From NCBI RefSeq assembly GCF_037572415.1, contig NZ_JBBHLB010000005.1, positions 150,050-214,049 on the forward strand: a stretch of 64,000 nt of DNA, written 5' to 3'. The first letter of the stretch is position 1; every line of letters begins with the position of its first letter. Under the pieces are notes generated by a model. That model saw only the letters and a list, made by a program, of their open reading frames with translations, was not told where the DNA came from and ran no database searches. Positions 15,036-47,370 of the stretch are shown here, in pieces. This stretch comes from Flavonifractor porci (GTDB lineage Bacteria; Bacillota; Clostridia; Oscillospirales; Oscillospiraceae). The position numbers were made by a program, and so were the translations under genes.

Positions 15036-15095
15036 TTATTTGATATGCAGTTCTTTTTCCACATCGTTCAGGTTGATGGTGAGCATCCGGCTGAT
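15036..15095 (-). repeat. displaced, diverged copy of the last ~57 nt of smc, including a TAA stop (encodes …ISRMLTINLNDVEKELHIK*)
   Basis: ~88% identical to 15258-15317, the true smc 3' end encoding …VSRMLTINLNDVEKELHIK*. It is separated from the true end by the 162-bp element. Confidence 0.75.
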
Positions 15096-15257
15096 CCCCC
15101 GCCCAGCCAAGGCTGGGCGGGGACCCCTTGATTTTACTCAAATCGCCGGAAATGAATCCCGGCGATTTCAAGGTTTTTCCCCAGGGCAAAACACTTGACG
15201 GCGCAAGCGCCGCCCCGCCTTCGGCGGGTGGGCGTCAGCCACCAACCCGTAAAGATA
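15096..15257 (-). repeat. copy A of a structured ~150-210 bp non-coding element family, inserted exactly at the smc stop codon
   Basis: Contains a GGGGACCCC motif preceded by a palindrome (CCCGCCCAGCC-AA-GGCTGGGCGGG), a core hairpin with an AATGAAT loop, and a GC hairpin (CGCCCCGCCTTCGGCGGGTGGGCG). It is homologous to the elements at 21860-22005, 42819-42984 and 47121-47332. Confidence 0.65.
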
Positions 15258-18200
15258 TCACTTAATGTGCAGTTCTTTCTCCACATCGTTCAGGTTGATA
15301 GTCAGCATCCGGCTGACGCCCTGCTCCTGCATGGTGACGCCATAGAGGACATCCGCTTCCTCCATGGTACCGCGGCGGTGGGTGATGACGATAAACTGAG
15401 TCTTGTCCGCCATCTGCCGCATATAGTGGGCAAAGCGCACCACGTTGGCGTCGTCCAGGGCGGCCTCGATCTCGTCCATCACTACAAAGGGAGTGGGCCG
15501 CACCTTCAGAATGGCAAAATAGAGGGCGATGGCCACGAAGGCCTTCTCGCCGCCGGACAGCAGGGAGAGCACCTTCAGCGCCTTGCCGGGGGGCTGCACC
15601 TTGATCTCGATGCCGCAGTTGAGGATATCATTGGGGTCCTCCAGCTCCAGAGTGGCCTTACCGCCCTGGAACAGCTCCGTAAAGGTCTGCTGGAAAGACT
15701 CGTTGAGCACGGCAAACTGCTTGGCAAAGATAGCGCGCATCTCCTCCGTGATATCGGCGATGATGCCCTCCAGCTCCTTTTTGGACTTCTGCACATCGTC
15801 CCGCTGGTCGGTGAGGTAGGTATAGCGCTCGTTGATACGCTGGAACTCGTCGATGGCGTCCAGGTTGATGTTGCCCAGAGAGGAAATGGACTTTTTCAGC
15901 TCTCCCACCCGGCGCTGGGCCTTGGGGACGCTCTCCAGCTCCACCCGCTGGGCCATGGCCGCCTGGTGGGACAGCTCGTAGGTCTCCCACAGCTTCTCCA
16001 GCAGGTTCTTCTCCTCCATGGCGGCGGCAGCCTTCTTCTGCTCCAGCACCGACACCTCCCGCTCCAGGTTGAGCAGGGCGCTGTTCTTGTCCCGGGCATC
16101 CTTGTCTGCCTGGTTGCGCTGGGCCTCCAGGGCCAGTTTCTCGTCGTTGATGCGGCTGATGGCGGCCTGGCGGTCCTGGTTTTCCAGTCGGATGTCCTGG
16201 AGCTGACGCTCCTTCTCCGCAATCTCCCGCTCCAGATCGGCGTTCTTCTCCTGGAACTGGGTAAGCATCCGCTCTCGCTCGGCCTTGTCGCCGGTCAGAT
16301 CCCGGCGCAGCTCTTCCAGTTCGGTCATGGACTTCCGGGCGGCCTGGGCCTCCGCCTCCAGGGCGGCCAGACGCATATTCAGTTCGGCAATGGCCTCGCC
16401 CAAAGCCGTAGCCTTCTCCTGGGCTTCGCTCTGGCCTCTGGCCTTACCCTCCGCCTCGGCCCGCAGGGCGGCGGCGGCTCCCTCCAGGGACTCCACCCGG
16501 GCGCGGGCGGCACGGGTATCCGCCTCGATCTGGGCAGAACGTGCCTGGAGCTGTTCCAGCTCACTCTTCTGGTCGGCACGCTGCTTCTTCAAATCGGCCA
16601 GCTGGGTATCCAAATGGCCCAGGCGCTCCTCCAGCTTAAGGATGTCGTCCTCATGGCGGCGCTGCTGGGCCTGAGCCGTCTCCATCTCGTAGGCGGCGGC
16701 GGTAGCCTCCCGCTTGGCCTCCTCCATGACGTGGGCCGCGTCGGCCAGCTGCTGGGCCACGCCGGTGCGCTGCTGAGCCAGCCGCTCCAACTCGTTGGCC
16801 CGGCTCAGAATGCCCGCGCTGCGGGACGCCGAACCGCCGGTCATGGAACCGCCGGGGTTGAGCACCTGGCCGTCCAGAGTGACGATCTTAAAGCGGTAGT
16901 TGTATTTGCGGGCCATGGCAATGGCCTTGTCCATATCCTCGGCCACCACGGTGCGGCCCAGCAGGTTGGAAAAGATCTTCTCATACCGGGGATCGAACTG
17001 GATGAGTTCGTTGCCCAGGCCTACAAAGCCGGGTTCCCTGCGCACGCCCTGATCCCGGAAGTCGGAGGGCCGCATGGAGGTCACGGGCAGGAAGGTGCTC
17101 CGGCCGCCGTCCCGGCGCTTCAGGTACTGAATGGCGGCCTTGCCGTCCTCCTCCCGCTCCACCACAATATGCTGCATGGCGCCCCCCAGGGCGATCTCGA
17201 TGGCTACCGTACAGGCGTCAGGCACATGGATGAGTCCGGCTACCGGGCCGTGGATGCCCCGAAGCTGGCCCTTCTTGGCCTCCCCCATCACCAGCTTTAC
17301 CGCTTTGGAGTAGCCCTCATACATCTTTTCCATCTCGGAGAGCATATGGATGCGGGAGTTCAGGGCGTTGTCCTCCATCTGGAGTTTGACGTGGCGCTCC
17401 TCCGCTTCCCTGGCCTTCCGCTGCCGGGTCTCCAGCCGCAGGGCGTAACCGCTGATGATGTTCTGTAAGCTGTCCCGGTCCTCCCTGGCCTGGTCCAGCT
17501 CCTGGGCGGCCTGACGGCGGGTCTCCTCCGCCTCATGGAGCCGCTCCTCACCGGAAGCCAGCTCCTGACGCATGGCCTCGTCCCGGTCCAACACCTCCTG
17601 GGCGGCAGCGGCCAGGGCGGAAATGAGGGCCTTGGCGTCGGCGGCGGAGGCGTTCTCCACCGCCTCCTTCCGGCGCAGGTCCTCCAGCTCCTGGGCAATG
17701 GCCCCGGCGGAGCGGCTGGCGGAGGCAGCCTCATTCTGGCGGTCAGCCAGCTGCTGCCGCAGGCCGGCGGTCTGGCCTTCCAGCTCCTCCAGCCGGGTCT
17801 TGCGCTCCCCGATCTGGGCGGCGATGGAGTCAGCCCGGCCCTCCTGCTGCTCCAGCTCCCGCTGGATGCGGTCCCGGTTCTCCAGGTTGTTCTGAATATT
17901 GGTTTTGAGGACGGCGATAGCGTTTTCCAGGCTGTTGGCATCGGCCTCCCGCTGCATCATTTGGAAGCGGACGCCCTCGGTCTCCACGTCCTTGTCCCGC
18001 ATCTGAGCGGAGAATGCCTCAGCGGCGGCGTACAGGTCCTCCACCTGCTGCTGGACCTCCCCCTTCTGACGGAGGGCATTCTCGTAGTCGGACAGGGTCT
18101 TGCGGGACCCGGAACGAATCTTCTCCAGCTGGTCCAGCCACAGGGAAATCTCCAGCCCACGCAGCTCGTCCCGCAGGATGAGGAACTTCCTGGCCTTCTC

Positions 18201-21767: not shown

Positions 21768-21789
21768 GGGCCGATGCCCTCATCGGCCC
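21767..21789. terminator. hairpin GGCCGATG-CCCT-CATCGGCC, the ancestral bidirectional terminator
   Basis: Stem-loop directly after the 21528..21767 stop and directly after the displaced trmFO 3' copy. Confidence 0.5.
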
Positions 21790-21859
21790 TCCACATCCAG
21801 TCCCGCCAGCGCTTCCAAGGCTCGCTTACTCAATTCAGCGTTCTTGTTCCGCTTGTTCC
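21790..21859 (-). repeat. displaced, diverged copy of the last ~70 nt of trmFO (encodes …NKRNKNAELSKRALEALAGLDVEGR*)
   Basis: ~85% identical to 22006-22078, the true end encoding …KGKRNKNAELSKRALEMLAGLDVE*. Most differences are synonymous. Confidence 0.75.
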
Positions 21860-22005
21860 CCACGGAAATCATATTTCCGTGGGAGCCCCGATCCTTAAAT
21901 CTGCTCGGGCGAAGTGAATTCGCCCGGCATCAAGATTTTGCTTCGCAAAATACTTGGCGCCGCACGGCGGCGGGTCGCTTTCGCTCCCGGGCAAGCGGAC
22001 GCGCC
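21860..22005 (-). repeat. copy B of the structured element family, inserted exactly at the trmFO stop codon
   Basis: Contains the palindrome CCCACGGAAAT-CAT-ATTTCCGTGGG, then GAGCCCC, a core hairpin CGGGCGAA-GTGAA-TTCGCCCG, an ATTTTGC-TTC-GCAAAAT hairpin, and a GC-rich proximal hairpin. Confidence 0.65.
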
Positions 22006-23310
22006 TTATTCTACATCCAGTCCCGCCAGCATTTCCAGAGCCCGCTTACTCAATTCGGCATTCTTATTCCGCTTGCCCTTGACCTTATAGCCCAGAGGCG
22101 GGATGATGCCGAAATTCACGTTCATGGGCTGGAAATCGGTAACGCTCTCATTGCTGATATACAGAGCCAGCGCGCCGGTGGCGGTCTCCTGAGGGAAATC
22201 CACCGGCGGCTTGCCGGTGAGCCGCCGGGCCAGCTCCACCGCCGCCAGGAAGCCGGAGGCGGTGGACTCCACATAGCCCTCCACGCCGGTGATCTGCCCG
22301 GCAAAGCAGATACGCGGGTCCTTCTTCACCCGGTAATACCGGTCCAGCAGCCGGGGAGAATCCAGATAGGTGTTGCGGTGCATGACGCCGTAGCGGACAA
22401 ACTCCGCGTTTTTCAGGGCGGGGATCATGGAAAACACCCGCTTCTGCTCCGGCCACTTCAGGTGGGTCTGGAAGCCCACCAGATTGTAGATGGTGCCGTC
22501 AGCGTTATCCCGCCGCAGCTGCACCACAGCGAAGGGCTCCTTGCCGGTCTTGGGGTCCCGCAGACCACGGGGCTTCAGTGGCCCGTAGCACAGGGTCTGC
22601 TTGCCCCGGCGGGCCATGACCTCCACCGGCATACAGCCCTCAAACACATTCTTGTCCTCAAAACCGTGGACCTCCGCCTCCTGGGCGGCACACAGCTCGG
22701 TCCAGAATGCGTCGTACTCCTCCTCGGTCATGGGGCAGTTGATGTAGTCCGGAGTGCCCTTGTCGTAGCGGGAGGCAAAGAAGGCGCTCTCCATGTCCAC
22801 GCTCTCAAAGGTGACCAGAGGGGCGGCGGCGTCAAAGAAGTTGAGGTAGTGGCTCTCCGGGAAGAAATCCTTAATGGCATCCGCCAGCACGTCGGAGGTC
22901 AGGGGCCCGGAGGCCACAATCACGTTGCCCTCTTCGGGAATCCGGGTGACTTCCTCCTCCACCACTGTGATGAGGGGATGATTGCGGATCTTCTCGGTGA
23001 TGGCCTGAGCAAAGCCGTGGCGGTCCACCGCCAGGGCGCCGCCGGCCTCCACCCTGTGCTCGTCGGCGCAGGACAGGATGAGGGAACCCATCCGCCGCAG
23101 CTCCTCCTTCAGCAGGCCCACCGCGTTCTCCAGCTGGTCGGAGCGCAGGGAGTTGGAGCACACCAGCTCGCCGAACCACTGGGTGTGGTGGGCGGGGGTC
23201 ATTTTGTGGGGCTTCATTTCCTTCAGGATCACGGGGATGCCCCGCCGGGCCAGCTGCCACGCAGCCTCACACCCGGCCAGACCCGCGCCGATCACGCGTA
23301 CAGGTTCCAT
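22006..23310 (-). CDS. trmFO: methylenetetrahydrofolate--tRNA-(uracil54-C5)-methyltransferase TrmFO (Gid)
   Basis: MEPVRVIGAGLAGCEAAWQLA… FAD-binding N-terminus and the TrmFO core. Confidence 0.9.
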   Translation of the reverse strand: MEPVRVIGAGLAGCEAAWQLARRGIPVILKEMKPHKMTPAHHTQWFGELVCSNSLRSDQLENAVGLLKEELRRMGSLILSCADEHRVEAGGALAVDRHGFAQAITEKIRNHPLITVVEEEVTRIPEEGNVIVASGPLTSDVLADAIKDFFPESHYLNFFDAAAPLVTFESVDMESAFFASRYDKGTPDYINCPMTEEEYDAFWTELCAAQEAEVHGFEDKNVFEGCMPVEVMARRGKQTLCYGPLKPRGLRDPKTGKEPFAVVQLRRDNADGTIYNLVGFQTHLKWPEQKRVFSMIPALKNAEFVRYGVMHRNTYLDSPRLLDRYYRVKKDPRICFAGQITGVEGYVESTASGFLAAVELARRLTGKPPVDFPQETATGALALYISNESVTDFQPMNVNFGIIPPLGYKVKGKRNKNAELSKRALEMLAGLDVE

Positions 23311-25676: not shown

Positions 25677-25691
25677 AGTACGATACTCCTT

Positions 25692-26915: not shown

Positions 26916-26939
26916 GGCGGAGCCTCCTCTCTTGTTGGC

Positions 26940-27704: not shown

Positions 27705-27711
27705 ACGCATC

Positions 27712-28365
27712 TTACAGATCCTGCAGGCGGTTGATGTCCTCAGTACGGCCCAGGGCCACCACCGCATCACCCGTCTCCATGAGGGTATTGGGGCCGGGAG
27801 TCACATTAAAAGCCTCCTGACCCTTTTTCCGCACGGCAATGATGTTGACCTTATACCTGGCTCGGACATTCAGTTCCATCAGGTTCTTGCCCAGCCAGTC
27901 CCGGGGCACGGTGGTCTCCACGATGCCGAAATCTTCACTGAGTTCGATAAAATTGAGCACATTGGAACTGGACAGGCCCTGGGCCAGCTTGACACCCATC
28001 TCGTGCTCAGGGAATACCACCCGGTCGGCGCCGATCTTTTCCAGTACTTTGCGGTGGACATGGCTCTGGGCCTTACAGATCACCTGACGCACACCCAGCT
28101 CCTTCAGATTCAGGGTGATGAGTGCTGAAGTGCCCACGTCCACACCTACCGCCACCACGGCACAGTCATAGTTGCGCACACCCAGGGCACGGAGCACCGC
28201 CGGGTCCCGGGCGTCGCCGCTAACGGCGTGGGTGACCTTATCGGCCACTTTCTGTACATTCTCCTCGGAGTCGTCCAGAGCCAGCACCTCATGTCCCAGG
28301 GAGCTGAGCTCGGCGGCCACGGCGCTGCCAAAGCGTCCCAGGCCGATGACAACGAAAGTCTTCAT
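27712..28365 (-). CDS. ktrA: potassium uptake protein KtrA/TrkA (RCK NAD-binding subunit)
   Basis: MKTFVVIGLGRFGSAVA… Rossmann GxGxxG motif and RCK_N/RCK_C architecture. Confidence 0.85.
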   Translation of the reverse strand: MKTFVVIGLGRFGSAVAAELSSLGHEVLALDDSEENVQKVADKVTHAVSGDARDPAVLRALGVRNYDCAVVAVGVDVGTSALITLNLKELGVRQVICKAQSHVHRKVLEKIGADRVVFPEHEMGVKLAQGLSSSNVLNFIELSEDFGIVETTVPRDWLGKNLMELNVRARYKVNIIAVRKKGQEAFNVTPGPNTLMETGDAVVALGRTEDINRLQDL

Positions 28366-28393
28366 ATGGTTACACGTCCTTCCGACCGGGCCG

Positions 28394-32608: not shown

Positions 32609-35600
32609 TTACTCCGCTTTGCTATCCGCAAAGCGCATGAGGATGGTAGCGACCTCAACGCGGGTGGCGGTGCCGGTGGGATCCAGCTTGCCGCCGTCCT
32701 TGCCGGACAGCAGGCCGGAGCCTACCGCCCACTCCATGGCCTCAGCGGCCCAGGAGGAGGTGTTGGCGCCGTCGGCGAAGGTGGTCAGATCGCCCTTGGC
32801 GGACACATCGTAGCCCTTGCTCTCAGCGTAGCGGTACAGGATGGTGGCCAGCTGCTCCCGGGTCACGGTGTCGTTGGGGGCAAACACGGTGTCGCTGTAG
32901 CCCTTGACGATACCCTTGGAGGCGGCCCAGTTCACAGCGTCGGTGTACCACACACCGCTCTCCACATCGGTGAAGGACAAGGTGGCCTCAGCCTTGGGCT
33001 GGCCCTCCAGCCGCCACAGGATGGTGACGATCATGGCACGGTTGGTGATCATGAGGGGAGCGAAGGTAGTGGAGGATGTGCCGTCCATCAGCTTATTATC
33101 GCAGACGTACTTCACGGCCTCATAGAACCACTCGTCGGCCTTCACGTCGGTGAAGGGCGTGTCGGTATCCACGGGGGTATCGTCCTTGACAAATGCTGCT
33201 TTCACGGTGACGGCGGAAGCAGGCATGGCGAAGGTGTACTTTCCGTCGCCCTTGTCGGTGAGCTTGACCTCGCTGCCGTTCTTGTCGGTGACGGTGATGG
33301 TATCCAGCTTGTAGCCCTCGTCAGACTTCACAGTCAAGGTGATGGTGAGACCCTTGGAGGCGCGGGTGCGGCTGGACGTCACAGTGCCATTGTCCGTCTC
33401 GTCCACGGTGATGGCGTAGGAGGTAGAGGGAACACCACCGGAACCATTATCCTCCCACTTGGCGTACAGGGTCATGCTCTCGTTTACAGGATCGCTGAAA
33501 TTCCACTGGGTGGTATATATATTGTCGGTATACCAGCCTGCAAACACATAGCCCTCGCGAACAGGTGCCTCAGGTTCGGCCACAGTGCTGCCGACCTCGA
33601 CCGTCTGTTCAGGTACACTGCTTCCGCCGTTGCTTTCAAAGGTCACCGTAACCGTCTTGGGCGCATTGGGGTCGATGGCATCGGCCCGGATCAGCACCTC
33701 CGCATTGATGTTGGAGATGGTGACATTACCAGTGACAGCGTCGTAAGTATACCCCTTGCCCTGTTCAAGGGCAGTGCCGCCCATGGTCACGGAAATGGTC
33801 TCAGGCAGGATATAGCCCTCGGCGGGAACCAACTTGAAGGTAAGGTCGGTCCCATCCATCACACTGTCTGTCTTGGGGTCCACACTGGCATTGTACAGGA
33901 TGTATTCGATATGGTGCATCACAGCAGTCTCAGTCTTAAAGGTGCAGGATGCGGGCTGCGACTCGTTGCCGCTTCTGTCGTAGGCGGTAACCGTTACCGT
34001 ATACTCTGCGTTGGGAGTCAGGCCGGAGAAGGCGTAGGTGCTGGCCGTGATATCGGCCACCGGGTCAGACGCTCCGTTCAGATAGACACGATAACCGGCC
34101 AGGTCGGCCTCCGCGGAGGGCGTCCAGGTGACCGTGGCGCCGGTCTGCGTGACTCCGGAAGCGGCCAGTCCGGCGGGCGCCGCAGGAGCCGTGGTATCGG
34201 GCCGCTCCACAGTGATGGTCACACCAAGGTCATTCACTGCGTCCAGGGTGCCGTGAATGGTCTGGGCAGCTTCGCTCTCGGCGGCATAATCGCTTTCCGT
34301 CCAGGCCACATTGCATACCACAAAGGTACTGTCGCTCATCTCGACCACAGCCCGAGTGGGCAGACCGAGCTCGGCAAAAGCGGTGCCCTGCTGTGCCGTG
34401 ACAGAAGCCGGGTTCACGGCTGCGGAGACAGCCTTGGGTTCTTCCGTCAGCGTAAGGTGCAGTTCTGCCTTCACACCATCCGTGTTGGTCACGGGGTCCT
34501 GACACTGAAGCGTACCGGTCAGAGTCTGCTCCGCGCTGTTGGAATTATATCCCTCGTCGCTCCAGGTCACATTCAGGGTGATCGAAGTGCCGTCAGCCAG
34601 AGTTGCGGCTACCGTCTCAGGCAGATTCAGATCGCCAAAGGCTGTTCCAAGAACGCCTGTGGCAGTGGCAGGTTTGACCGATTCCACGTTAGGCTCCGCA
34701 GGCGCCACAAACCGGGTACCGGTAACGGTAACTTCTTTCAGGCCGATGCAGGTACTTTCTCTAGGTATAACACTATTGCCCTTCTCAAAATAGAGCCGGA
34801 GATAACGGGTGCCCGCAGGAATGGGCTTTGTAAAGTCCGCCTTGGCCACGCTGTGGGTAGCGCCAGATTCCGTTCCCGACTGCGTCACAGTGGCAATGGT
34901 AGTCCAGGCATTGGCATCCTTTGCGTTTTGGCCGGTGAGAGCCTCTTTATTATTCATAGTCTGATAGAGGTTCTCTTTGCTGTAGTCCTGGGGCGTATAG
35001 TCGCTGCCCGCAACCTGAATCCAATATTCATCGGACCAGGTCTTATTAAAGTAGGACATGGAGATCCCGGTGACATCAGCCACATCTTCCCCAAGATCGA
35101 TCACGATCCAGGCGCCGTTGGAATCTGTCGCCACTTCGGGACCCACCCAGTTGCTGCTCCACCGAGTGCCGGTATCGCCGTCCACACTCTTGCTGGGTTC
35201 AAATCCAGAACTCAGTTCCATACCGGAGGCATAGACGGGGTGCTCCAGAGAAAGATTCTCTTCCGCTCCAACGCCGGCCGAATAAGTCTTGGTACCATTG
35301 ATTTTCAGTTCAGCCACACTGATGCCAGTGGCGCCGGTGGCATACTTGTTGATCTCATTAAACACTACGCACACATACCGACCACTGGTGCCCTCAGGCA
35401 GTACAGTTACCTGATCGTCGTGACCTTTTTGATCGGTAGGATCATAGGACGCGCTGGCAGCCTTTGTACCGCCGCTTACCTTGCCGTCTTGTACCGTAAA
35501 GGGCTCGTCGGAGACGTAGATATCATATTTGGTGGGCCAGGATTTATCTGTGTAGCATTTCAGCGTAATATCGGTAAGCTCATTGGTGCCGCTCAGATCT

Positions 35601-38600
35601 TCTCCGTCTTTGCCGGTGTTCAGATCCACGATGATCCACTCCACGCCCGGAGTCTGAGGCGCATCCACGCTGCCGGTCTCCTTGATGGCAGGACCCGCGC
35701 ACCACCGGTTGCTGGGATCGCCGTCCAGGGCCTTCCAGGACTGAGGATCGTCCGAAGATCCGGAAACACCAGATGCCTGATGGGCCTTATTCAGCGCCAG
35801 ATTACCGGCAAAAGGCTCCTGAGGGGTGGAACTGTCCCGCCGCACAGCGACCACGGCAGTCAGAGCAAAGCCACCGGGATTGGTGATGGTATCGCCCAGG
35901 ACATAGTTGCCCGTTACGGTGTATTCCTTGGCAGCGGTAGGATCATAATCTTCCCCGGACCAGACAACAGGAAGGGTAACCTCTTTGCCGTTGCTCAGGG
36001 TCACAGTACCCTGCGCAGGCAAGCCGGCCCGATCCAATTCGGTGCCAAAGGCCACTTCCACTTCGATTTCCGGATTGGGAGCGGTGTAAATGCTGGGCAG
36101 CGGGAGGGGTGCCTTACCGGCTTCGCCCTCGTCCAGACGTCCGTTGAGCAGGATCTCCGCAATGCTGACATTGCTGCCGGCCGCCCAGGCCACTTTAATC
36201 GCGGAGATATCGCCCAGCTGGGAAGTATCGCCTACCCAGACGGTATTGTCTGCCGTTCCAACAGTCTCCCAGTTATCGCCCACCTTCACGGTCACGCTGG
36301 CATTGGAGACAGAATTCTGAATCACACTGACCGAATCCAGATGGACCGGCTTCTTCAGAGTATAGACCAGCTCGCCGGCAGCACTGCTGTTAAAAGCGGT
36401 CAGCAGATTGCCGTCCATTGCGTTTTGTTCATTTGCGGCGCCGCTGGTAAAGGTTCCGGCAGAGGTGTCTACGGTAAATTCCCGAACGTTGAGCTTGCTG
36501 CTGGAATCTTCTGTCTGGCGCAGCCGCAGGTAGCGGGCACGAATGGCAAGATCAGACAGGGTGATATGAGTGGAATCTACCTCAGGAACCAGGGTAATCC
36601 ACTGGATTCCATCCTGAGAATACTCCAGAGTGGCGTTATGATAATAGTTGCTGTCCTCATCCTTTTCGCCCTGAAGGATAGAAACGCCGCGCACGGTCTT
36701 TTCGATGCCCAAATCCACGCCGTAATAGTCATTGGCCTGCTGCGCAACATCGTACTTGGCGGCGCTGCCGGCATTTCCATCCAGCATTGCGTTGGAAGCG
36801 GTGGCCTCCTGGCGGACCCCGCCGATCACCGCATAGAGGGTGGGCTCGGTATGAGATACCTGCGGGCTCAGCTCTTCAAAAATGCGGGTGGATACACCTT
36901 CCATCAGATCCGTAATGAACGGCTGCAGCCGCTTGGAGCCGCCATAAGTGTTAAGGCTCTTCTTTTCGGTATTGGCAGCATTGTACTGGGCCCAGGCCTC
37001 AGCCAGATTGTCGCTGTTGACCGCAACAGCCGCCTGAAGAGCGGGCTGGATCGCCTGAGCGACTTTTTCCAGATTGCTGAGCCAGGGATTCAATTCACCG
37101 ATCAGTTGAGCGCTGGTGCAGTGTTCCTTAAAATATGCGATCGCTTCCACAATGTGCTGGCATTCATCCCGCAGCTTCACAAAGTCCGGATCCTCAGCGG
37201 TCAGGGTCCCGTTTTTCGTCTTTTCCAGAACTGCCGCCATGGTGTCCTTCAGATAATCAGACTCAGGGAAGGGATTTCTGCCAGGGAAACGGCTGGGCAC
37301 GTTGGAACCAACTGCTGCGCCCACATTCCGGGCAATGGTGAGATAGGCGTCATACACCTCGGGCTGGAGGTACTTGAAGCAATCTTCCCAGATGTCCAGA
37401 TAATTCTCGTCATAGCTTTCATTGTTCCAGTTCCAGCACATCAGCTGGTAGATACCCACCTTACTGACCTGGGGCTTATTGCAGGGGTTTGAGATAATGC
37501 CCAGGTGATGTTTCAGTCCTTTTGCCCATTGCAGATAGGCCTGGCTGTCACCCAGGAAAATGCCCCGGCCACCGGTATGTTCGTTACAGGGATAGTTCAG
37601 CCAGGTTACGATGTCATGTCCGCTGCGATCATACGCATAGTCGTAATTCTTCTGCTCCACGGGAGAATTTACCGTAGCGCCCGTCCAGTAGATTGGAATA
37701 CGGGAGTCCAGATTTTTAAACGATGCCAGCTCCTCGCCGTTGTCTGTCTCCGCACGACCGACATTATAATGCTGCGGGCAGTACACAATGGTTGCACAAT
37801 CACCCTTTTTATCCACATAATCGGTCATGATCCGGTTCAGCAGATTTACCGCATCGGCATGGGTGCCGGAACCGAAATCGTCGTTCAGGATGTGGAATTG
37901 GCGCACACCAATCGCATAGAACTGGTCAAGCTTTTTGGTGAGCAGATCAAAGCGTCTGTTATACTCCGCATAGCCCGCTTCATTACTGGGATCGGTGCTT
38001 ACGCCGCCTTTAAAAAAGCTGCCCAGATGAACAGACCAGACAAATTCCACTTTGGTTTCTTTTCCGACTTCGACAAGCCGTTTAAAGTCCTTCATCTGAT
38101 CCTCTGGATAGAGTTTGTCCCAATCAGAAGTATGATACTTGTCCGTTTTGGACGCATAGACAAAGATGTTCATTTTGACATCCCGCCCCATGCGCATCAC
38201 GCTTTCCCGGTTTTCAACATCCCAGCCGCCATAGAAGCCTTCTATCACACCGCGGTACAGGTTGTTGGAATAGTCCTCGATCTCCACCGGCAGGAACTTC
38301 TGACCGGCAAAGGAGCTGAACATCATCTGCAGGGTGGCCAGACCGTAGTAAACACAGTCTGTATCCTTACCCACGATGGTAACCACTCCGTTGGCGTTGT
38401 TGGTGGTATCTGCCACCAACATATAGGGATCATACTTCCCCATACCGGTACTGTCGCTGTCGTCGAACAGGTCCGTACGAGCGGTGGGAACAGGGTCTGC
38501 AACAGTCTTGTCCTCGTCCCCGTAGACGCCCAACAGGATGTTGGTCTTCCCGGCCACCACCGCACTGGAGGTAGTCATGGTCATGTCATAATCGGCCAGG

Positions 38601-38893
38601 ATTTCTTCCAGAAAATCTTTGGTGTAGCTGTCGATGCCGCTCTCCACCACAACGTTGACTTCTTTGGTCATGGTGAAGGGTACTGCTCCGTCAGGATAGA
38701 CGACCGAATGGGGCACCGGATAAATTTCATAACGACCTTGGTCCTCTGAAAATCCGTTGACAAGACTATCTTCCACCATGCCCTCTTTGGGCGGCTGCAG
38801 CGCAAACGCAGGCGACACGGTGGTAGACAGCATGGTACCGGCCAACAGCAAGGCCAGTACCTGTTTGTTGCCTCTTGACTTCATCCTCTTCAC
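32609..38893 (-). CDS. giant (2094 aa) secreted, cell-wall-anchored glycoside hydrolase: GH84-like beta-N-acetylglucosaminidase/hyaluronidase-type catalytic domain, F5/8-type C (discoidin) and Ig-like/FN3 modules, and three C-terminal SLH domains
   Basis: Signal peptide MKRMKSRGNKQVLALLLAGTMLSTTVSPAFA. Catalytic segment YRGVIEGFYGGWDVENRESVMRMGRDVKMNIFVYASKTDKYH… is GH84-like. Repeated beta-sandwich modules follow, then three SLH repeats at the C-terminus (FTDVKADEWFYEAVKYV…, FTDVESGVWYTDAVNWAASKGIVKGY…). Confidence 0.7.
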   Translation of the reverse strand: MKRMKSRGNKQVLALLLAGTMLSTTVSPAFALQPPKEGMVEDSLVNGFSEDQGRYEIYPVPHSVVYPDGAVPFTMTKEVNVVVESGIDSYTKDFLEEILADYDMTMTTSSAVVAGKTNILLGVYGDEDKTVADPVPTARTDLFDDSDSTGMGKYDPYMLVADTTNNANGVVTIVGKDTDCVYYGLATLQMMFSSFAGQKFLPVEIEDYSNNLYRGVIEGFYGGWDVENRESVMRMGRDVKMNIFVYASKTDKYHTSDWDKLYPEDQMKDFKRLVEVGKETKVEFVWSVHLGSFFKGGVSTDPSNEAGYAEYNRRFDLLTKKLDQFYAIGVRQFHILNDDFGSGTHADAVNLLNRIMTDYVDKKGDCATIVYCPQHYNVGRAETDNGEELASFKNLDSRIPIYWTGATVNSPVEQKNYDYAYDRSGHDIVTWLNYPCNEHTGGRGIFLGDSQAYLQWAKGLKHHLGIISNPCNKPQVSKVGIYQLMCWNWNNESYDENYLDIWEDCFKYLQPEVYDAYLTIARNVGAAVGSNVPSRFPGRNPFPESDYLKDTMAAVLEKTKNGTLTAEDPDFVKLRDECQHIVEAIAYFKEHCTSAQLIGELNPWLSNLEKVAQAIQPALQAAVAVNSDNLAEAWAQYNAANTEKKSLNTYGGSKRLQPFITDLMEGVSTRIFEELSPQVSHTEPTLYAVIGGVRQEATASNAMLDGNAGSAAKYDVAQQANDYYGVDLGIEKTVRGVSILQGEKDEDSNYYHNATLEYSQDGIQWITLVPEVDSTHITLSDLAIRARYLRLRQTEDSSSKLNVREFTVDTSAGTFTSGAANEQNAMDGNLLTAFNSSAAGELVYTLKKPVHLDSVSVIQNSVSNASVTVKVGDNWETVGTADNTVWVGDTSQLGDISAIKVAWAAGSNVSIAEILLNGRLDEGEAGKAPLPLPSIYTAPNPEIEVEVAFGTELDRAGLPAQGTVTLSNGKEVTLPVVWSGEDYDPTAAKEYTVTGNYVLGDTITNPGGFALTAVVAVRRDSSTPQEPFAGNLALNKAHQASGVSGSSDDPQSWKALDGDPSNRWCAGPAIKETGSVDAPQTPGVEWIIVDLNTGKDGEDLSGTNELTDITLKCYTDKSWPTKYDIYVSDEPFTVQDGKVSGGTKAASASYDPTDQKGHDDQVTVLPEGTSGRYVCVVFNEINKYATGATGISVAELKINGTKTYSAGVGAEENLSLEHPVYASGMELSSGFEPSKSVDGDTGTRWSSNWVGPEVATDSNGAWIVIDLGEDVADVTGISMSYFNKTWSDEYWIQVAGSDYTPQDYSKENLYQTMNNKEALTGQNAKDANAWTTIATVTQSGTESGATHSVAKADFTKPIPAGTRYLRLYFEKGNSVIPRESTCIGLKEVTVTGTRFVAPAEPNVESVKPATATGVLGTAFGDLNLPETVAATLADGTSITLNVTWSDEGYNSNSAEQTLTGTLQCQDPVTNTDGVKAELHLTLTEEPKAVSAAVNPASVTAQQGTAFAELGLPTRAVVEMSDSTFVVCNVAWTESDYAAESEAAQTIHGTLDAVNDLGVTITVERPDTTAPAAPAGLAASGVTQTGATVTWTPSAEADLAGYRVYLNGASDPVADITASTYAFSGLTPNAEYTVTVTAYDRSGNESQPASCTFKTETAVMHHIEYILYNASVDPKTDSVMDGTDLTFKLVPAEGYILPETISVTMGGTALEQGKGYTYDAVTGNVTISNINAEVLIRADAIDPNAPKTVTVTFESNGGSSVPEQTVEVGSTVAEPEAPVREGYVFAGWYTDNIYTTQWNFSDPVNESMTLYAKWEDNGSGGVPSTSYAITVDETDNGTVTSSRTRASKGLTITLTVKSDEGYKLDTITVTDKNGSEVKLTDKGDGKYTFAMPASAVTVKAAFVKDDTPVDTDTPFTDVKADEWFYEAVKYVCDNKLMDGTSSTTFAPLMITNRAMIVTILWRLEGQPKAEATLSFTDVESGVWYTDAVNWAASKGIVKGYSDTVFAPNDTVTREQLATILYRYAESKGYDVSAKGDLTTFADGANTSSWAAEAMEWAVGSGLLSGKDGGKLDPTGTATRVEVATILMRFADSKAE

Positions 38894-42415: not shown

Positions 42416-42826
42416 TCAAGCGCTCTCCTGCTCCTTCTTCTCTTCCTGCTTCTTCTGGAAGCCAGCAAGATCAATCACCTTGGAAGCATTGGAACTAAAA
42501 TCGGGCTGCTCCTTGTACTTTGGGAACTGGGTCTCAAACCAATTCCGCACAAACTTGTAGGGGATGGGCTGCTCCAGGGAGCAGGTCTTGACCACCTCAG
42601 ACTGGGCCAACAGCTCACCAGCATTCTGAAACACGCCCATATACTTCTCCATGTTTGCGCAAGTCAGGTTCTTGTAGGTGCGTTTGCTGGCATTTTTCTT
42701 GATGGTCTTGGTCGCTATCTGAGTACTGGGGAAGTCCTGGCGGTAAGCTCTCCACTCTCTGTATTCAGGAGGGCCGAAGATACGGGTCTGCTTCTTGAAA
42801 GCCTTGCCGTGGTGGGCAATCCCCAT
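42416..42826 (-). CDS. hypothetical ORF whose first codons derive from the displaced rubrerythrin 3'-end copy; it may be real or spurious
   Basis: Starts MGIAHHGKAF…, corresponding to rubrerythrin …[15 protein letters not shown]. Lys/Glu-rich C-terminus. Low-GC region. Confidence 0.2.
   Translation of the reverse strand: MGIAHHGKAFKKQTRIFGPPEYREWRAYRQDFPSTQIATKTIKKNASKRTYKNLTCANMEKYMGVFQNAGELLAQSEVVKTCSLEQPIPYKFVRNWFETQFPKYKEQPDFSSNASKVIDLAGFQKKQEEKKEQESA
42770..42818 (-). repeat. displaced, degenerated copy of the rubrerythrin 3' end (stop lost, one codon deleted)
   Basis: GAAAGCCTTGCCGTGGTGGGC…TTCAAGAAGCAGACCCGTATCTTCGGCCCT aligns with rbr 42985-43040, GAAAGCCTTGCCGTGGCGGGC…TTCGAGGGCCTGCTGAAGCGTTACTTCGGCTAA. 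Confidence 0.6.
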
Positions 42827-42984
42827 GGGACAAATCCCATGGGGACCCCAATGATTTCATCTGCTCGGGCGGAGTGAATCCGCCCGGCTTCGAGGTTTCA
42901 GCTTCGCCAAAACCCTCGGTGACGAGGCCCGCCACGGCAAAAAAGATCCCGGTCCGTTGGACCGGGATCTTTTAGGTATTCAGA
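42819..42984 (-). repeat. copy D of the structured element family, inserted exactly at the rubrerythrin stop codon, with its own strong terminator
   Basis: CCCATGGG-ACAAAT-CCCATGGGG palindrome, then ACCCCAATGATTTCAT, core hairpin CGGGCGGA-GTGAA-TCCGCCCG, and the terminator AGATCCCGGTCC-GTTG-GACCGGGATCT with A/T flanks at 42944-42970. Confidence 0.7.
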
Positions 42985-43527
42985 TTAGCCGAAGTAACGC
43001 TTCAGCAGGCCCTCGAAAGCCTTGCCGTGGCGGGCCTCGTCGCGAGCCATCTCGTGGACGGTGTCGTGGATGGCGTCCAGGTTGTGCTCCTTGGCCAGCT
43101 TGGCCAGCTCGAACTTGCCGGCGGTAGCGCCGTTCTCGGCGTCCACACGCATCTCCAGGTTCTTCTTGGTGGAATCGGTCAGAACCTCACCCAGCAGCTC
43201 GGCAAACTTGGCGGCGTGCTCGGCCTCCTCCAGAGCGGCCTTCTCCCAGTACAGGCCGATCTCGGGGTAGCCCTCACGATGAGCCACACGGCTCATGGCC
43301 AGATACATACCGACCTCGGAGCACTCGCCCTCAAAGTTCATGCGCAGGCCCTGGATGATCTCCTCGGGAGCGCCCTTGGCAACACCGACAACGTGCTCAG
43401 CAGCCCAGGTACGATCGCCACCCTGGAGCACGAACTTCTCCTTGGGAGCCTTACAGATGGGGCAGAAATCAGGGGCGGAATCCCCCTCGTGAACATAACC
43501 GCAAACAGAGCAGACCCACTTTTTCAT
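42985..43527 (-). CDS. rbr: reverse rubrerythrin (N-terminal rubredoxin-like domain plus C-terminal ferritin-like diiron domain)
   Basis: [28 protein letters not shown] (CxxC…CxxC rubredoxin fold) followed by diiron ExxH motifs ([23 protein letters not shown]). Confidence 0.85.
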
Positions 43528-45509: not shown

Positions 45510-47120
<1,611 letters not shown>

Positions 47121-47332
47121 GCAACGCCCCCTTATGCTGACTTTCCAAGGAGGGACGCGGCAGCGCCGCGTCCCTCCTTTTTCGTCGGCCACCGGGGCCC
47201 CATCAAAGATGGGGCGGCGCGCAAGCGCCGTACAAGCGTTTTACCGGCAGGCAAAACCTTAATGCCGGGCGGATTCATTCCGCCCGAGCAGCTCCAATCA
47301 TGGGGTCCCCAACCTGCCCCGCAGGTTGGGGC
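47121..47332 (+). repeat. copy C of the structured element family, inserted exactly after the gdhA stop, with its own intrinsic terminator
   Basis: Terminator GGAGGGACGCGGC-AGC-GCCGCGTCCCTCC plus TTTTT at 47149-47182. Core hairpin CCGGGCGGATTCATTCCGCCCG. CAATCATGGGGTCCCC followed by the palindrome AACCTGCCCCGCAGGTTGGGGC. This is the same orientation relative to the host gene as copies A, B and D. Confidence 0.7.
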
Positions 47333-47370
47333 TGGCCGACGCTATGATCTGGCAGGGCGTGTCCTACTAA
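47333..47370 (+). repeat. displaced, identical copy of the last 38 nt of gdhA including TAA (TGGCCGACGCTATGATCTGGCAGGGCGTGTCCTACTAA)
   Basis: Exact repeat of 47083-47120. It is followed by the ancestral gdhA terminator. Confidence 0.8.

What the first reader, a model, noticed from the sequence alone, without database searches (positions are those of the whole stretch)
42819..42984. Conserved structure with compensatory base changes across the four element copies suggests a functional structured RNA or a recombination site
Aligning copies A (15096-15257), B (21860-22005), C (47121-47332, reverse-complemented to the minus-strand orientation shared by A, B and D) and D (42819-42984) in that common orientation gives the same module order. 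First comes a variable perfect palindrome. A has CCCGCCCAGCC/GGCTGGGCGGG, B has CCCACGGAAAT/ATTTCCGTGGG, C has CCCCAACCTGC/GCAGGTTGGGG and D has CCCATGGG/CCCATGGGG. Next is GGGGACCCC, or GAGCCCC in B, followed by (A/T)TGATT. Then comes a core hairpin whose loop is conserved ((A/G)TGAA(T)) while its stem changes by paired substitutions. Copies C and D have CGGGCGGA/TCCGCCCG, copy B has CGGGCGAA/TTCGCCCG, and copy A has (A)TCGCCGG/CCGGCGA(T). A further GC-rich hairpin or terminator follows at the gene-proximal end. Conserved structure with diverging sequence is the hallmark of a selected RNA fold, such as a transposon-encoded guide or bridge-like RNA, retron-like msr/msd or a cis-regulatory RNA. 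It is equally the hallmark of a structure-recognised recombination site such as an integron attC.
Basis: seen in the sequence. Interest (0 to 1): 0.75.

Follow-up and report, generated by a model that had tools for sequence, protein, structure and literature searches.

The report
Guide-carrying miniature mobile element, gene-end patch
The four hairpin-rich repeats are copies of a small, apparently undescribed mobile DNA element of gut Oscillospiraceae that carries a 14-15-base sequence complementary to its own insertion site plus a spare copy of the gene end it displaces, which points to a base-pair-guided insertion mechanism whose enzyme was not found.

Summary
The window holds exactly four copies, behind SMC, TrmFO, glutamate dehydrogenase and rubrerythrin. 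More than 100 relatives occur in Oscillospiraceae genomes and gut metagenomes.

- **Structure.** The stems covary strongly: 96.6% of cells are paired against 81.6% in shuffles, with 129 double-change cells.
- **Duplication.** Each copy is flanked by a direct duplication of 22-124 bp of a gene's end or start. Differences between the two copies are mostly synonymous.
- **Guide.** After the last constant hairpin sits an 11-18-nt segment that is the reverse complement of the uninterrupted target across the junction, about 9 nt on one side and 5-6 nt on the other.
- **Mobility.** Strains with an identical rubrerythrin protein carry 0, 1 or 2 tandem copies.
- **Orientation.** It follows GC skew (23:6), as in single-strand-DNA transposons.

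Best reading: a non-autonomous, single-strand-folded element. A guide-directed strand transfer at the target integrates it, and it restores the interrupted gene end with its own copy. The closest analogue is IS200/IS605.

No Rfam family, neighbouring protein gene or equivalent paper was found. The enzyme, and whether the active strand is DNA or RNA, remain unknown.

The parts
42765..42817 (-). Copy D: displaced, decayed native end of the rubrerythrin gene (F'). The best-kept part is 42797-42817, which ends at junction sequence x.
42821..42844 (-). Copy D: terminal variable hairpin HP1 (CCCCATGGG / loop / CCCATGGGG). A 3-nt linker, AAT (42818-42820), separates it from x.
42845..42919 (-). Copy D: constant module, comprising ACCCC, AATGATT, the core hairpin (42863-42889, loop GTGAA) and hairpin 3 (42891-42918). 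The folded strand is the minus strand.
42921..42938 (-). Copy D: guide segment GACGAGGCCCGCCACGGC. It is the reverse complement of the intact target 43024-43041 (gccgtggcgggc|ctcgtc).
42939..42984 (-). Copy D: spacer carrying a terminator-like hairpin plus T-run. It arrived with the element and is absent from the empty site in L067.
42985..43035 (-). Copy D: element-side copy of the gene end (F), in frame with rubrerythrin (42985-43527). The junction x|y lies at 43035|43036.
15036..15095 (-). Copy A: displaced end of the SMC gene (F'). It still encodes ISRMLTINLNDVEKELHIK*.
   Evidence: (D12)
15097..15229 (-). Copy A: HP1 (15097-15122) plus the constant module. The module holds the core hairpin (15140-15168), hairpin 3 (15168-15198), hairpin 4 (15200-15211) and hairpin 5 (15213-15228).
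15230..15240 (-). Copy A: guide GGGCGTCAGCC, the reverse complement of the intact target 15311-15321 (ggctgac|gccc).
15258..15317 (-). Copy A: functional end of SMC (F), encoding VSRMLTINLNDVEKELHIK*. It differs from F' at about 8 bases; the only amino-acid difference is the junction codon (V vs I).
21780..21855 (-). Copy B: displaced end of TrmFO (F'), encoding KRNKNAELSKRALEALAGLDVEGR*.
   Evidence: (D10)
21858..21988 (-). Copy B: HP1 (21858-21883) plus the constant module (core hairpin 21903-21929, hairpin 3 21930-21957, then GC-rich hairpins). This is the most diverged copy.
21989..21998 (-). Copy B: guide GGGCAAGCGG, the reverse complement of the intact target 22069-22078 (ccgcttg|ccc).
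   Evidence: read directly
22006..22075 (-). Copy B: functional end of TrmFO (F), encoding KRNKNAELSKRALEMLAGLDVE*.
47083..47120 (+). Copy C: functional end of glutamate dehydrogenase (F). The junction lies at 47082|47083.
   Evidence: (D11)
47121..47182 (+). Copy C: spacer with a terminator-like hairpin plus T-run that ends directly at the guide.
47183..47193 (+). Copy C: guide. It reads CGTCGGCCACC on the + strand and is an inverted copy of the target 47081-47091.
47194..47331 (+). Copy C: constant module (hairpin 5 47198-47214, hairpin 4 47215-47230, hairpin 3 47231-47262, core 47263-47290) plus HP1 (47307-47331). The folded strand is the plus strand.
47333..47370 (+). Copy C: displaced end of the Gdh gene (F'). 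It is identical to F over 38-39 nt, stop codon included.

Best explanation
**What it is.** The four copies belong to a large family of non-autonomous mobile elements about 200-300 bp long. The family is restricted, in what was sampled, almost entirely to a group of Oscillospiraceae: Flavonifractor, Pseudoflavonifractor, Intestinimonas, Lawsonibacter, Oscillibacter.

**Anatomy.** Each element has two modules.
- A constant module of about 125 nt: the terminal hairpin HP1, then GACCCC..TGATT, a core hairpin, hairpin 3, and one or two GC-rich hairpins. It folds on one strand only.
- A variable module: a guide of about 14-15 nt, followed by a copy of the nearby gene terminus. That copy includes the stop codon and downstream flank, or the ribosome-binding site and start codon, and ends at the junction.

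**The guide.** It is complementary to the uninterrupted target, roughly 9 nt on the duplicated side (x) and 5-6 nt beyond it (y).

**Proposed mechanism.** The element integrates exactly at x|y, inside the last or first 25-120 bp of a gene. Its own copy of the terminus keeps the gene intact, and the native terminus is pushed to the far side as a dead direct repeat. The x|y site is regenerated, which would allow tandem re-insertion.

**Shown here:** the architecture; guide-target complementarity, including y; covariation; the strand-specific fold; presence/absence and tandem polymorphism; and a coding history for both repeat copies.

**Inferred:**
- The folded strand is single-stranded DNA, exposed mainly on the lagging-strand template.
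- The guide base-pairs with the target strand to position cleavage and strand transfer.
- HP1 marks the other cleavage point.
- The reaction is carried out in trans by an unidentified strand transferase, in the manner of IS200/IS605 'peel-and-paste' transposition but with a long guide.
For: **Family and copy number.** The pattern scan gave 58 genome loci and 51 metagenome loci. Covariance-model hits number more than 70 and 40. The window holds exactly four.

**Duplication.** Nearly every copy is flanked by a 22-124-bp direct duplication that ends at HP1.

**Targets.**
- Gene 3' ends: SMC, TrmFO, Gdh, rubrerythrin.
- Gene 5' ends: UvrB, HisRS, Cu-ATPase, MiaA, carbamate kinase.
- The intact gene is always on the guide side of the element.

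**Guide.**
- The best reverse-complement match to a copy's own target averages 11.25, against 6.4 for mismatched pairs. It reaches 9 or more in 79% of copies, against 5% of controls.
- Complementarity extends into y by a mean of 3.0 nt (mode 5-6). It extends only 0.12 nt into the HP1-side sequence (p=8e-5). The x part is modally 9 nt.
- Guide and target co-vary between orthologous insertions: SMC copy A against L034, and HisRS L007 against L012/L042/L056.

**Structure.** Pairing is 96.6% against 81.6% in shuffles, with 129 double changes and 0 of 500 shuffles reaching the observed values.

**Strand.**
These become wobble pairs on the other strand.
- The other strand is more stable in 49 of 50 copies (p about 1e-9).

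**Coding history of both repeats.**
- Mismatches cluster in one codon phase, 69 of 101 (p<0.0002).
- The peptides are identical or differ by a single residue within the repeat in copies A and B.

**Mobility.**
- Among strains with a 100% identical rubrerythrin protein there are an empty site (L067), one copy (window, L061, L064), two tandem units (L062) and deletion fossils that keep the terminator and a decayed guide (L063, L065).
- Tandem arrays occur in L028 (three units), L039, L037, L038 and L060. In strain An507 the 207-bp and 223-bp contigs are single repeat units.
- Within one metagenome-assembled genome, the same HP1 and constant module carry a different guide and gene end (L021 against L044).

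**Replication strand.** The folded strand is the G-rich strand in 23 of 29 loci with clear skew (p=0.002). This also holds for 5'-type copies, 8 of 10.

**Known precedent.** IS608 chooses its target by DNA-DNA base pairing, and this can be reprogrammed and extended (PMC5934647, PMC3201880).
Against: - **No enzyme found.** There is no transposase or recombinase among the window ORFs. No protein recurs next to copies in about 760 kb of loci. No IS200-like Y1 motif was found in 475 kb.
- **No circular form seen.** Neither a circular nor an excised intermediate was observed.
- **Copy C breaks the rule.** In the window it lies on the opposite strand to the replication-strand rule.
- **GC skew is an indirect proxy.** Measured over 8 kb, it reflects replication direction only indirectly.
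- **Some guides mismatch.** Examples are L026, L033 and L045, so complementarity is not always maintained.
- **Retargeting is unexplained.** How a new guide and a new gene-end copy arise together is unknown.
- **The guide could be a by-product.** The inverted 14-mer might be left by the insertion process rather than determine the target.
- **No known ssDNA transposon matches.** None uses a guide longer than a few nucleotides or carries a gene-end patch.
Confidence: 0.55

Rival explanations
1. RNA-guided recombination. The folded strand is transcribed into a small RNA with a 5' guide and a scaffold of about 110 nt. This RNA directs a trans-encoded recombinase to x|y. It would work like the bridge or seek RNAs of IS110/IS1111, but the RNA gene itself is the cargo.
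For: - Strong covariation, with wobble positions that fit G.U pairs.
- The guide spans a 14-15-nt target, as long as the target recognised by IS621 (PMC11208160).
- Solo copies of IS110-associated small RNA genes exist, as for ISPpu9 (abstract of PMC12288879, seen).
- The guide sits at the 5' edge of the scaffold on the folded strand.
Against: - The sequence upstream of the guide is host-derived and differs in every copy, so no conserved promoter is possible there.
- In C and D a terminator hairpin and T-run end exactly where the guide starts.
- No promoter-like site was found around D.
- The guide is one contiguous complement to a single strand. It is not two split guides in an internal loop pairing with opposite strands.
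- There is no Rfam hit.
- No DEDD recombinase lies nearby.
- An orientation bias with the replication strand is not a known property of IS110.
Confidence: 0.2
2. Passive Campbell-type integration. A small circle, or a tandem unit, made of the constant module plus a gene-end fragment integrates and amplifies through host homologous recombination across the gene-end copy. The inverted 14-mer is then a footprint of how the unit was first formed, for example a template switch, and not a targeting device. The hairpins serve replication or stability, like a single-strand origin.
For: - The product is exactly what a single crossover with a terminal gene fragment gives: one intact gene and one dead fragment.
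- Tandem arrays are common.
- Identical units in L028 fit unequal crossing-over.
- Only terminus-containing fragments are seen, as selection would leave.
Against: - The homology is often only 22-50 bp, which is poor for RecA.
- The junction is sharp and lies at the same base in different species for the same gene.
- The element holds 5-6 nt of sequence from beyond its homology.
- Guide and target co-vary between orthologous insertions.
- This model does not predict the strand and replication bias.
Confidence: 0.12
3. Remnants of integrase-driven integrative elements, that is attL/attR scars or cis-mobilisable elements. Alternatively, an integron-attC-like folded site used by a tyrosine recombinase.
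For: - Direct repeats made of a gene end that is reconstituted by the element are typical of integrases that target gene 3' ends (established knowledge).
- attC sites are likewise recognised as folded single strands with an orientation bias.
Against: - More than 30 different target genes share one constant module, and there is no shared core sequence at the junction beyond a weak, possibly artefactual C bias.
- No integrase gene or remnant lies nearby.
- The elements are about 200 bp long and recently active.
- There is no R/L-box anatomy, no cassette array and no intI.
- Gene 5' ends are also used.
Confidence: 0.06
4. A non-mobile cis-regulatory or 3'-UTR RNA, such as a terminator, stabiliser or small RNA, conserved downstream of housekeeping genes.
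For: All four window copies lie just downstream of genes and are rich in stable hairpins.
Against: - Family members sit at 5' ends in antisense orientation.
- Presence, absence and tandem number vary between strains with identical proteins.
- Copies are flanked by duplications.
- The guide has the same sense as the mRNA in one class and the opposite sense in the other, so it cannot be a consistent mRNA-pairing seed.
Confidence: 0.03

Closest known systems
IS200/IS605-family single-strand transposons (IS608, ISDra2), and their non-autonomous relatives (PATEs; REP sequences with RAYT/TnpA-REP)
   Same: - Ends are defined by hairpins that fold on one strand only.
- There are no terminal inverted repeats.
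- The cleavage or target site is recognised by base pairing with a short internal 'guide' placed 5' of a hairpin foot.
- Orientation is biased towards the lagging-strand template.
- Non-autonomous copies are mobilised in trans.
- The left flank equals the target.
   Different: - The guide here is 11-18 nt, against 4-5 nt.
- It spans both sides of the junction.
- Targets are unique gene sequences rather than one tetra- or pentanucleotide.
- The element carries a 25-120-bp replacement of the gene terminus, so insertion leaves a long direct repeat.
- The constant module has four to six covarying hairpins.
- No Y1 HUH transposase was found.
IS110/IS1111 bridge RNA and seekRNA recombination
   Same: - Target choice is programmable by nucleic-acid complementarity over about 14 nt.
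- The guide is encoded in the non-coding part of the element.
- A circular intermediate is expected.
- The guide can in principle act in trans.
   Different: - Bridge RNAs have two internal loops, each with split left and right guides pairing to opposite strands, plus a core dinucleotide (PMC11208160). Here there is one contiguous guide against one strand.
- No separate donor-binding loop is evident.
- No adjacent DEDD recombinase is present.
- No promoter is evident.
- There is a replication-strand bias.
Integrative elements that insert into the 3' end of tRNA or protein genes and rebuild it (phage/ICE/IME integrases; cis-mobilisable elements)
   Same: The element supplies a substitute gene end, and the native end is left as a direct repeat at the far junction. 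The strategy gives a conserved, harmless target.
   Different: - The size is about 200 bp, with no integrase.
- Dozens of different targets are served by one constant module.
- Gene 5' ends are also used.
- Specificity is apparently encoded by a nucleic-acid guide.
Integron attC sites
   Same: Structure is conserved while sequence varies. The site is recognised as a folded single strand. Orientation is linked to replication.
   Different: - There is no R''-L''/L'-R' anatomy and no extrahelical bases.
- There is no attI/intI platform and no cassette context.
- The fold has several hairpins.
- A target-complementary segment is present.

Membership tests
IS200/IS605-type single-strand transposable elements (including PATE and REP/RAYT) | Subterminal hairpins functional on one strand only | tested here: met
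The complement strand is more stable in 49 of 50 copies. Stems covary.
IS200/IS605-type single-strand transposable elements (including PATE and REP/RAYT) | Cleavage or target site recognised by pairing with an internal guide 5' of a hairpin foot | tested here: inconclusive
   On the folded strand a complementary segment sits directly 5' of the last hairpin and matches the target. It is 11-18 nt long rather than 4, and the cleavage positions are inferred, not measured.
IS200/IS605-type single-strand transposable elements (including PATE and REP/RAYT) | Insertion 3' of one fixed tetra- or pentanucleotide, without target duplication | tested here: not met
   More than 30 different target sequences are used, with no fixed motif. 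Insertions leave 22-124-bp direct repeats.
IS200/IS605-type single-strand transposable elements (including PATE and REP/RAYT) | Y1 HUH transposase (TnpA), in the element or elsewhere in the genome | not testable with these tools
   None was found in the window, in 475 kb of loci by motif search, or as a recurrent neighbour. Whole genomes could not be searched.
IS200/IS605-type single-strand transposable elements (including PATE and REP/RAYT) | Orientation bias: active strand on the lagging-strand template | tested here: met
   The folded strand is G-rich in 23 of 29 loci with |skew|>0.03 (p=0.002). This also holds for 5'-type copies. The proxy is GC skew. Window copy C is an exception.
IS110/IS1111 bridge RNA / seekRNA | RNA with target- and donor-binding internal loops, each with split guides pairing to opposite DNA strands around a core dinucleotide | tested here: not met
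   There is a single contiguous complement to one strand, and no second, donor-specific segment. The definition is taken from PMC11208160.
IS110/IS1111 bridge RNA / seekRNA | Encoded in the non-coding end next to a DEDD/RuvC-like recombinase gene | tested here: not met
   No protein gene lies in or beside any copy.
Integron attC | Imperfect single hairpin with R''/L''-L'/R' boxes, in a cassette array next to intI/attI | tested here: not met
   The fold has several hairpins. Copies are dispersed at housekeeping gene termini. There is no integrase and no array of cassettes.
Retron msr/msd | ncRNA bounded by a1/a2 inverted repeats with an adjacent reverse transcriptase gene | tested here: not met
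   On the folded strand, x and its complement do bracket the constant module. However, there is no RT gene nearby, there are four copies in this 64-kb window (far above a retron's usual single copy), and there is no Rfam retron hit.
Integrase-type integrative element or its attL/attR remnant (CIME) | Direct repeats formed by a reconstituted gene end, plus a family-specific att core and an integrase (present or decayed) | tested here: not met
   The repeats are present. There is no common core, no integrase remnant, and many targets share one constant module.
Classical MITE | Terminal inverted repeats and a short target-site duplication of fixed length | tested here: not met
   There are no terminal inverted repeats. 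The duplication varies from 22 to 124 bp and its differences are of coding type.
Any curated RNA family (Rfam 15) | Score at or above the family's gathering threshold | tested here: not met
   There are 0 hits in the window at gathering thresholds. An E-value scan of copy D gave only terminator-like noise.

The most novel reading that the evidence does not exclude
These elements are the visible cargo of an undescribed, naturally programmable insertion system. A contiguous 14-15-nt nucleic-acid guide, DNA or RNA, is carried by a roughly 125-nt structured scaffold. It directs a trans-acting enzyme of unknown family to cut and join at an arbitrary chromosomal sequence. The element retargets by swapping its guide together with a gene-end 'patch' that makes insertion into essential genes harmless.
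Probability: 0.4. Interest if true: 0.95.

Novelty: new variant of a known kind. Interest (0 to 1): 0.85.

Why it matters
- **A new targeting logic.** If the guide really sets the insertion site, this is a third natural way for a transposable element to choose its target by base pairing. It would join the 4-nt DNA guides of IS200/IS605 and the split RNA guides of IS110. It would also be the first in which a tiny non-autonomous element carries both the address and a repair patch for the gene it interrupts.
- **A possible tool.** A guide of 14-15 nt on a scaffold of about 125 nt is an attractive starting point for programmable insertion, once the enzyme is found.
- **Relevance to gut genomics.**
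  - The family is abundant in common human and animal gut commensals, with four copies in this 64-kb window.
  - It breaks assemblies: repeat-unit contigs of 207 and 223 bp occur in strain An507.
  - It creates tandem arrays, imports foreign alleles of gene ends and terminators, and leaves pseudo-ORFs that gene callers annotate.
- **Testable questions.** How do selfish elements colonise essential, conserved genes without cost? How can a new guide and patch be acquired together?

Tried and rejected
- **HP1 mimics the target.** I tested whether the variable hairpin HP1 resembles or guides to the target sequence beyond the junction. It shows no similarity (permutation p=0.44 and 0.18; the in-register comparison equals the control). 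In addition, the same HP1 occurs with different targets (L021, L044, L054).
- **Diversity-generating retroelement (template and variable repeats).** The differences between the repeats are not adenine-specific, and they lie at four unrelated genes (read directly).
- **tRNA- or tmRNA-like element.** ARAGORN finds none.
- **Known RNA family.** Rfam gives nothing at gathering thresholds or by E-value.
- **Phage or plasmid origin.**
  - There are 0 hits in viral contigs.
  - The one 'phage' record, MT838705, is an unannotated bacterial fragment with two tandem copies.
  - One degenerate copy lies on a 504-kb Pusillibacter replicon.
- **Neighbouring partner protein.** All-against-all clustering of ORFs from 58 and then 109 loci recovered only syntenic housekeeping genes, such as IF-2, ValRS, formate-THF ligase and DegV. 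The window ORFs are all housekeeping. An IS200-like motif search found nothing.
- **Direct synonymous/non-synonymous counts.** Automatic frame calling failed because antisense frames stay open at this GC content. I replaced it with a codon-phase test and direct translation.
- **Gene-orientation proxy for replication direction.** Neighbouring genes simply follow the target gene, so I replaced it with GC skew.
- **Promoter in the conserved TTGATT...TGAAT spacing.** It is too weak by eye, and the scan found none.
- **Literature.** Searches for an equivalent element found nothing.
Full report
**1. Checking the observation**

The order is:
- a variable hairpin closed by CCCC(A/G)...TGGGG;
- GACCCC;
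- (A/T)TGATT;
- a core hairpin with loop (A/G)TGAA;
- an AAGGTTTT...AAAAC.CTTG hairpin;
- GC-rich hairpins.

The 25-nt core has 3 matches at up to 3 mismatches, against none in 100 shuffles. A covariance model built later from 50 relatives finds exactly four copies in the window:
- A: 15094-15221 +
- B: 21856-21979 +
- D: 42816-42943 +
- C: 47208-47335 -

Rfam gives nothing, either at gathering thresholds or in a permissive scan of copy D. There are no tRNA or tmRNA genes.

**2.

Each copy lies directly after the stop codon of a housekeeping gene:
- SMC (15258-18845, minus strand);
- TrmFO/GidA-like (22006-23310, minus strand);
- glutamate dehydrogenase (45660-47120, plus strand);
- reverse rubrerythrin (42985-43527, minus strand).

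Each copy is bracketed by a direct duplication of that gene's last 25-70 bp (families D10-D12).

The two repeat copies differ mostly at synonymous positions.
- Behind SMC they encode ISRMLTINLNDVEKELHIK* and VSRMLTINLNDVEKELHIK*, despite about 8 base differences.
- Behind TrmFO they encode KRNKNAELSKRALEALAGLDVEGR* and KRNKNAELSKRALEMLAGLDVE*.
- Over 19 loci with at least 3 mismatches, 69 of 101 mismatches fall in one codon phase, against 55% expected (p<0.0002).

So both copies have a history as working coding sequence. The element brings in an allelic gene end rather than generating a target-site duplication.

**3. The family**

A structure-independent pattern (GACCCC..TGATT..TGAAT..AGRTTT) found 58 loci among one genome per species. 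Nearly all are Oscillospiraceae: Flavonifractor, Pseudoflavonifractor, Intestinimonas, Lawsonibacter, Oscillibacter. A slightly looser pattern found 51 metagenome loci and none in viral contigs. Model searches raise the count to more than 110 copies.

In every well-resolved case the anatomy is the same:
- F', the displaced gene-terminal fragment, ending at x;
- 0-4 linker bases;
- HP1;
- the constant module;
- the guide;
- a spacer;
- F, the second gene-terminal copy, ending at x;
- y and the rest of the intact gene.

The intact gene is always on the guide side. About a quarter of the copies sit at gene 5' ends, with the ribosome-binding site and start codon duplicated. Examples are UvrB, histidyl-tRNA synthetase, a copper ATPase, MiaA and carbamate kinase. 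Orientation is therefore fixed relative to the intact gene and not relative to transcription. This rules out a 3'-UTR or mRNA-pairing role.

**4. The guide**

Directly after the last constant hairpin lies a segment that is the reverse complement of the uninterrupted target across the junction. In the window:

| Copy | Guide | Coordinates | Target |
|---|---|---|---|
| A | GGGCGTCAGCC | 15230-15240 | ggctgac\|gccc |
| B | GGGCAAGCGG | 21989-21998 | ccgcttg\|ccc |
| C | GGTGGCCGACG (minus-strand reading) | 47183-47193 | cgtcggcca\|cc |
| D | GACGAGGCCCGCCACGGC | 42921-42938 | gccgtggcgggc\|ctcgtc |

Across the family:
- The best ungapped reverse-complement match to a copy's own target averages 11.25, against 6.4 for other elements' targets. 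It reaches 9 or more in 79% of copies, against 5% of controls.
- The match runs on into y, the sequence outside the duplication, by a mean of 3.0 nt (mode 5-6). It runs only 0.12 nt into the HP1-side sequence (p=8e-5).
- The x part is modally 9 nt.
- Guides co-vary with targets between orthologous insertions. For SMC, copy A has C/G where L034 has T/A. The HisRS insertion in L007 has a one-base difference matched in its guide.
- The variable hairpin HP1, by contrast, is unrelated to the target. It can be shared by elements with different targets.

**5. Structure and strand**

On a MAFFT alignment of 50 copies, 19 pairs of hairpin 3 and the core hairpin are 96.6% paired, against 81.6% in shuffles. 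There are 129 cells changed on both sides against 35.8. None of 500 shuffles reaches the observed values, and the slid registers give 28-55% pairing (RNAalifold).

The fold is strand-specific.
These become wobble pairs on the complementary strand.
- One core pair is GC in 23 copies, AU in 22 and GU in 5 on that strand.
- The complementary strand is more stable in 49 of 50 copies, at -68.5 against -63.0 kcal/mol (p about 1e-9).

For copies A, B and D the folded strand is the minus strand. For copy C it is the plus strand. On the folded strand the order is: guide (reading x y), hairpins, HP1, then the complement of x.

**6. Evidence of mobility**

Contigs that encode a 100% identical rubrerythrin protein differ in their element content (alignment A2):
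- L067 is a true empty site. The stop codon is followed by the ribosome-binding site and start of a rubredoxin gene, with no terminator, no element and no duplication.
- The window, L061 and L064 have one copy.
- L062 has two non-identical tandem units.
- L063 and L065 keep the imported terminator and a decayed guide, but have lost the constant module, HP1 and F'.

The terminator-bearing spacer therefore came in with the element.

Tandem arrays are frequent: L028 (three identical 259-bp units), L039, L037, L038 and L060. In Pseudoflavonifractor phocaeensis An507 the 207-bp and 223-bp contigs are single repeat units. This fits the fact that integration regenerates x|y.

Two further observations point to active spread and retargeting.
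- SMC carries insertions at two different positions in different species, and each site is intact where the other is used.
- Within one metagenome-assembled genome, L021 and L044 share HP1 and a roughly 90% identical constant module, but have entirely different guides and gene ends. Retargeting therefore swaps the whole variable module.

**7. DNA or RNA?**

- The sequence upstream of the guide on the folded strand is host-derived and differs in every copy, so no conserved promoter can lie there.
- In C and D a terminator hairpin and its T-run end exactly at the first base of the guide.
- No promoter-like site was found around D.
- Orientation follows the replication strand. The folded strand is the G-rich strand in 30 of 41 loci, and in 23 of 29 with |skew|>0.03 (p=0.002).
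- This also holds for 5'-type copies, where the folded strand is antisense to the target gene: 8 of 10 correctly typed cases.
- The window has uniformly negative GC skew on the plus strand. Copies A, B and D therefore fit, and C does not.

From established knowledge, a folded strand lying on the lagging-strand template is the hallmark of elements that act as single-stranded DNA: IS200/IS605, integron attC, and endonuclease-less group II introns. I therefore favour single-stranded DNA. An RNA is not excluded.

**8. Proposed mechanism (inferred)**

On the folded strand the locus reads, 5' to 3':
- the gene up to the complement of y;
- the nick site;
- the complement of x, then the gene-end copy and the spacer;
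- the guide (x y);
- the hairpins, ending with HP1 and the linker;
- the second nick site;
- the complement of x, then the displaced gene end.

A strand transferase acting in trans would recognise the hairpins. It would use the guide to align the target, or the left cleavage site, by 14-15 bp of pairing. It would cut after HP1 at the other end.

Joining the two flanks restores the gene with its old end, and joining the element's ends gives a circle. The reverse reaction at a naive x|y site inserts the element.

This is the logic of IS608 'peel-and-paste' transposition. There, tetranucleotide guides 5' of the hairpin feet pair with the cleavage sites and the target (PMC3201880). Lengthening the pairing raises specificity (PMC5934647). 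Here the guide is long, and the stretch between the left cleavage site and the guide contains the gene terminus.

Selection explains why only terminus-containing elements are seen, since anything else would break the gene.

Two things remain unexplained: how a new guide and patch arise together, and which enzyme acts.

**9. Search for a partner**

- No transposase, recombinase or reverse transcriptase is present among the window ORFs. All are housekeeping.
- No protein recurs beside copies in 58 genome loci or in 109 loci including metagenomes.
- No IS200-like Y1 motif appears in 475 kb.
- Whole genomes could not be searched with these tools.

**10. Comparison with known systems**

- **Bridge/seek RNAs** use two internal loops with split guides that pair to opposite strands, and they are encoded beside a DEDD recombinase. 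Neither feature is met here.
- **attC, retron, integrase att scars and classical MITEs** each fail at least one defining feature (see the membership table).
- **IS200/IS605** is the nearest working analogue, but two of its defining features are not met: a fixed short target, and insertion without duplication. A third, the Y1 transposase, could not be tested.
- **Literature.** Searches found no description of such an element.

**11. Verdict**

It is wrong in each specific family it names.

The feature is a member of an abundant, apparently undescribed class of guide-bearing, gene-end-patching miniature mobile elements. The enzyme, and whether the active strand is DNA or RNA, remain open.

The window probably comes from assembly GCA_022785125.1 or a very close relative. 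That is an Oscillospiraceae bacterium near Pseudoflavonifractor and Flavonifractor.

Noticed in passing
window 42416-42826 (minus strand): The 136-aa ORF downstream of copy D, also called as a gene in related contigs, is made of three things. These are the decayed displaced rubrerythrin end, a filler stretch, and what looks like the remnant of a rubredoxin gene start (ATGGAGAAGTAT). In the empty-site contig L067 an intact rubredoxin gene follows rubrerythrin directly. The ORF is probably a pseudo-ORF created by the element.
   Followed up: partly
L063 3536-3640 and L065 3544-3650: These are 'fossil' loci. The terminator imported by the element and a decayed guide (GCTGTGGTGCGCTTCGTC) remain after the rubrerythrin gene, but the constant module, HP1 and the displaced gene end have been deleted. 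Elements can therefore leave a new terminator behind.
   Followed up: yes
L048 (223 bp) and L053 (207 bp), Pseudoflavonifractor phocaeensis An507; L050 contig end: Whole contigs consist of one repeat unit, with ends that overlap at the junction sequence. The element sits at a PHP-family gene start. This indicates a tandem array or an extrachromosomal circle, and it shows that the family breaks short-read assemblies.
   Followed up: partly
window copies A and C; loci L023, L027, L028, L032, L036, L052, L054, L055: A subfamily has an extra hairpin just before the guide, of the form CCCC-stem-GGGG followed by CCCC. It resembles HP1 followed by ACCCC. The element thus has two HP1-like hairpins in direct orientation, one at each end of the constant module, reminiscent of the left and right end hairpins of IS200/IS605.
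   Followed up: no
L029 4800-5500 (minus strand): One copy lies about 100 nt after what looks like the 3' end of a tRNA- or tmRNA-like gene (GGTTCGAGCCTCGTCACCTGCTCCA) plus a terminator. Only a short duplication of about 10 nt is visible. It may be an intergenic insertion with a minimal patch.
   Followed up: no
L060 = GenBank MT838705.1: This record is deposited as 'Bacteriophage sp.' It carries ordinary bacterial genes, including one resembling peptide chain release factor 3 (identified by eye only, not searched), and two tandem element copies of lower GC content (0.49-0.54). It is probably mislabelled, and it suggests the family reaches beyond the high-GC genera.
   Followed up: partly
window 32609-38893 (minus strand): A very long open reading frame of 2094 aa, with a 1644-aa frame open on the opposite strand. 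It was not examined.
   Followed up: no
window 55956-56709: Two 73-77% identical direct repeats lie 468 bp apart inside a coding region. They are probably an internally duplicated protein domain upstream of the Rnf genes.
   Followed up: no
window 14095-29776: A conserved housekeeping block on the G-rich minus strand contains FtsY, SMC, PlsX, TrmFO, topoisomerase I, DprA and TrkH. GC skew is uniformly negative on the plus strand across all 64 kb, so the window holds no replication origin or terminus.
   Followed up: yes
junctions in 46 distinct targets: The last base of x is C in 31 of 46 targets, and the base before it is C in 24 of 46. This may be a short shared core with the CCCC that opens HP1. 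It may also be an artefact of the alignment running into those Cs.
   Followed up: partly
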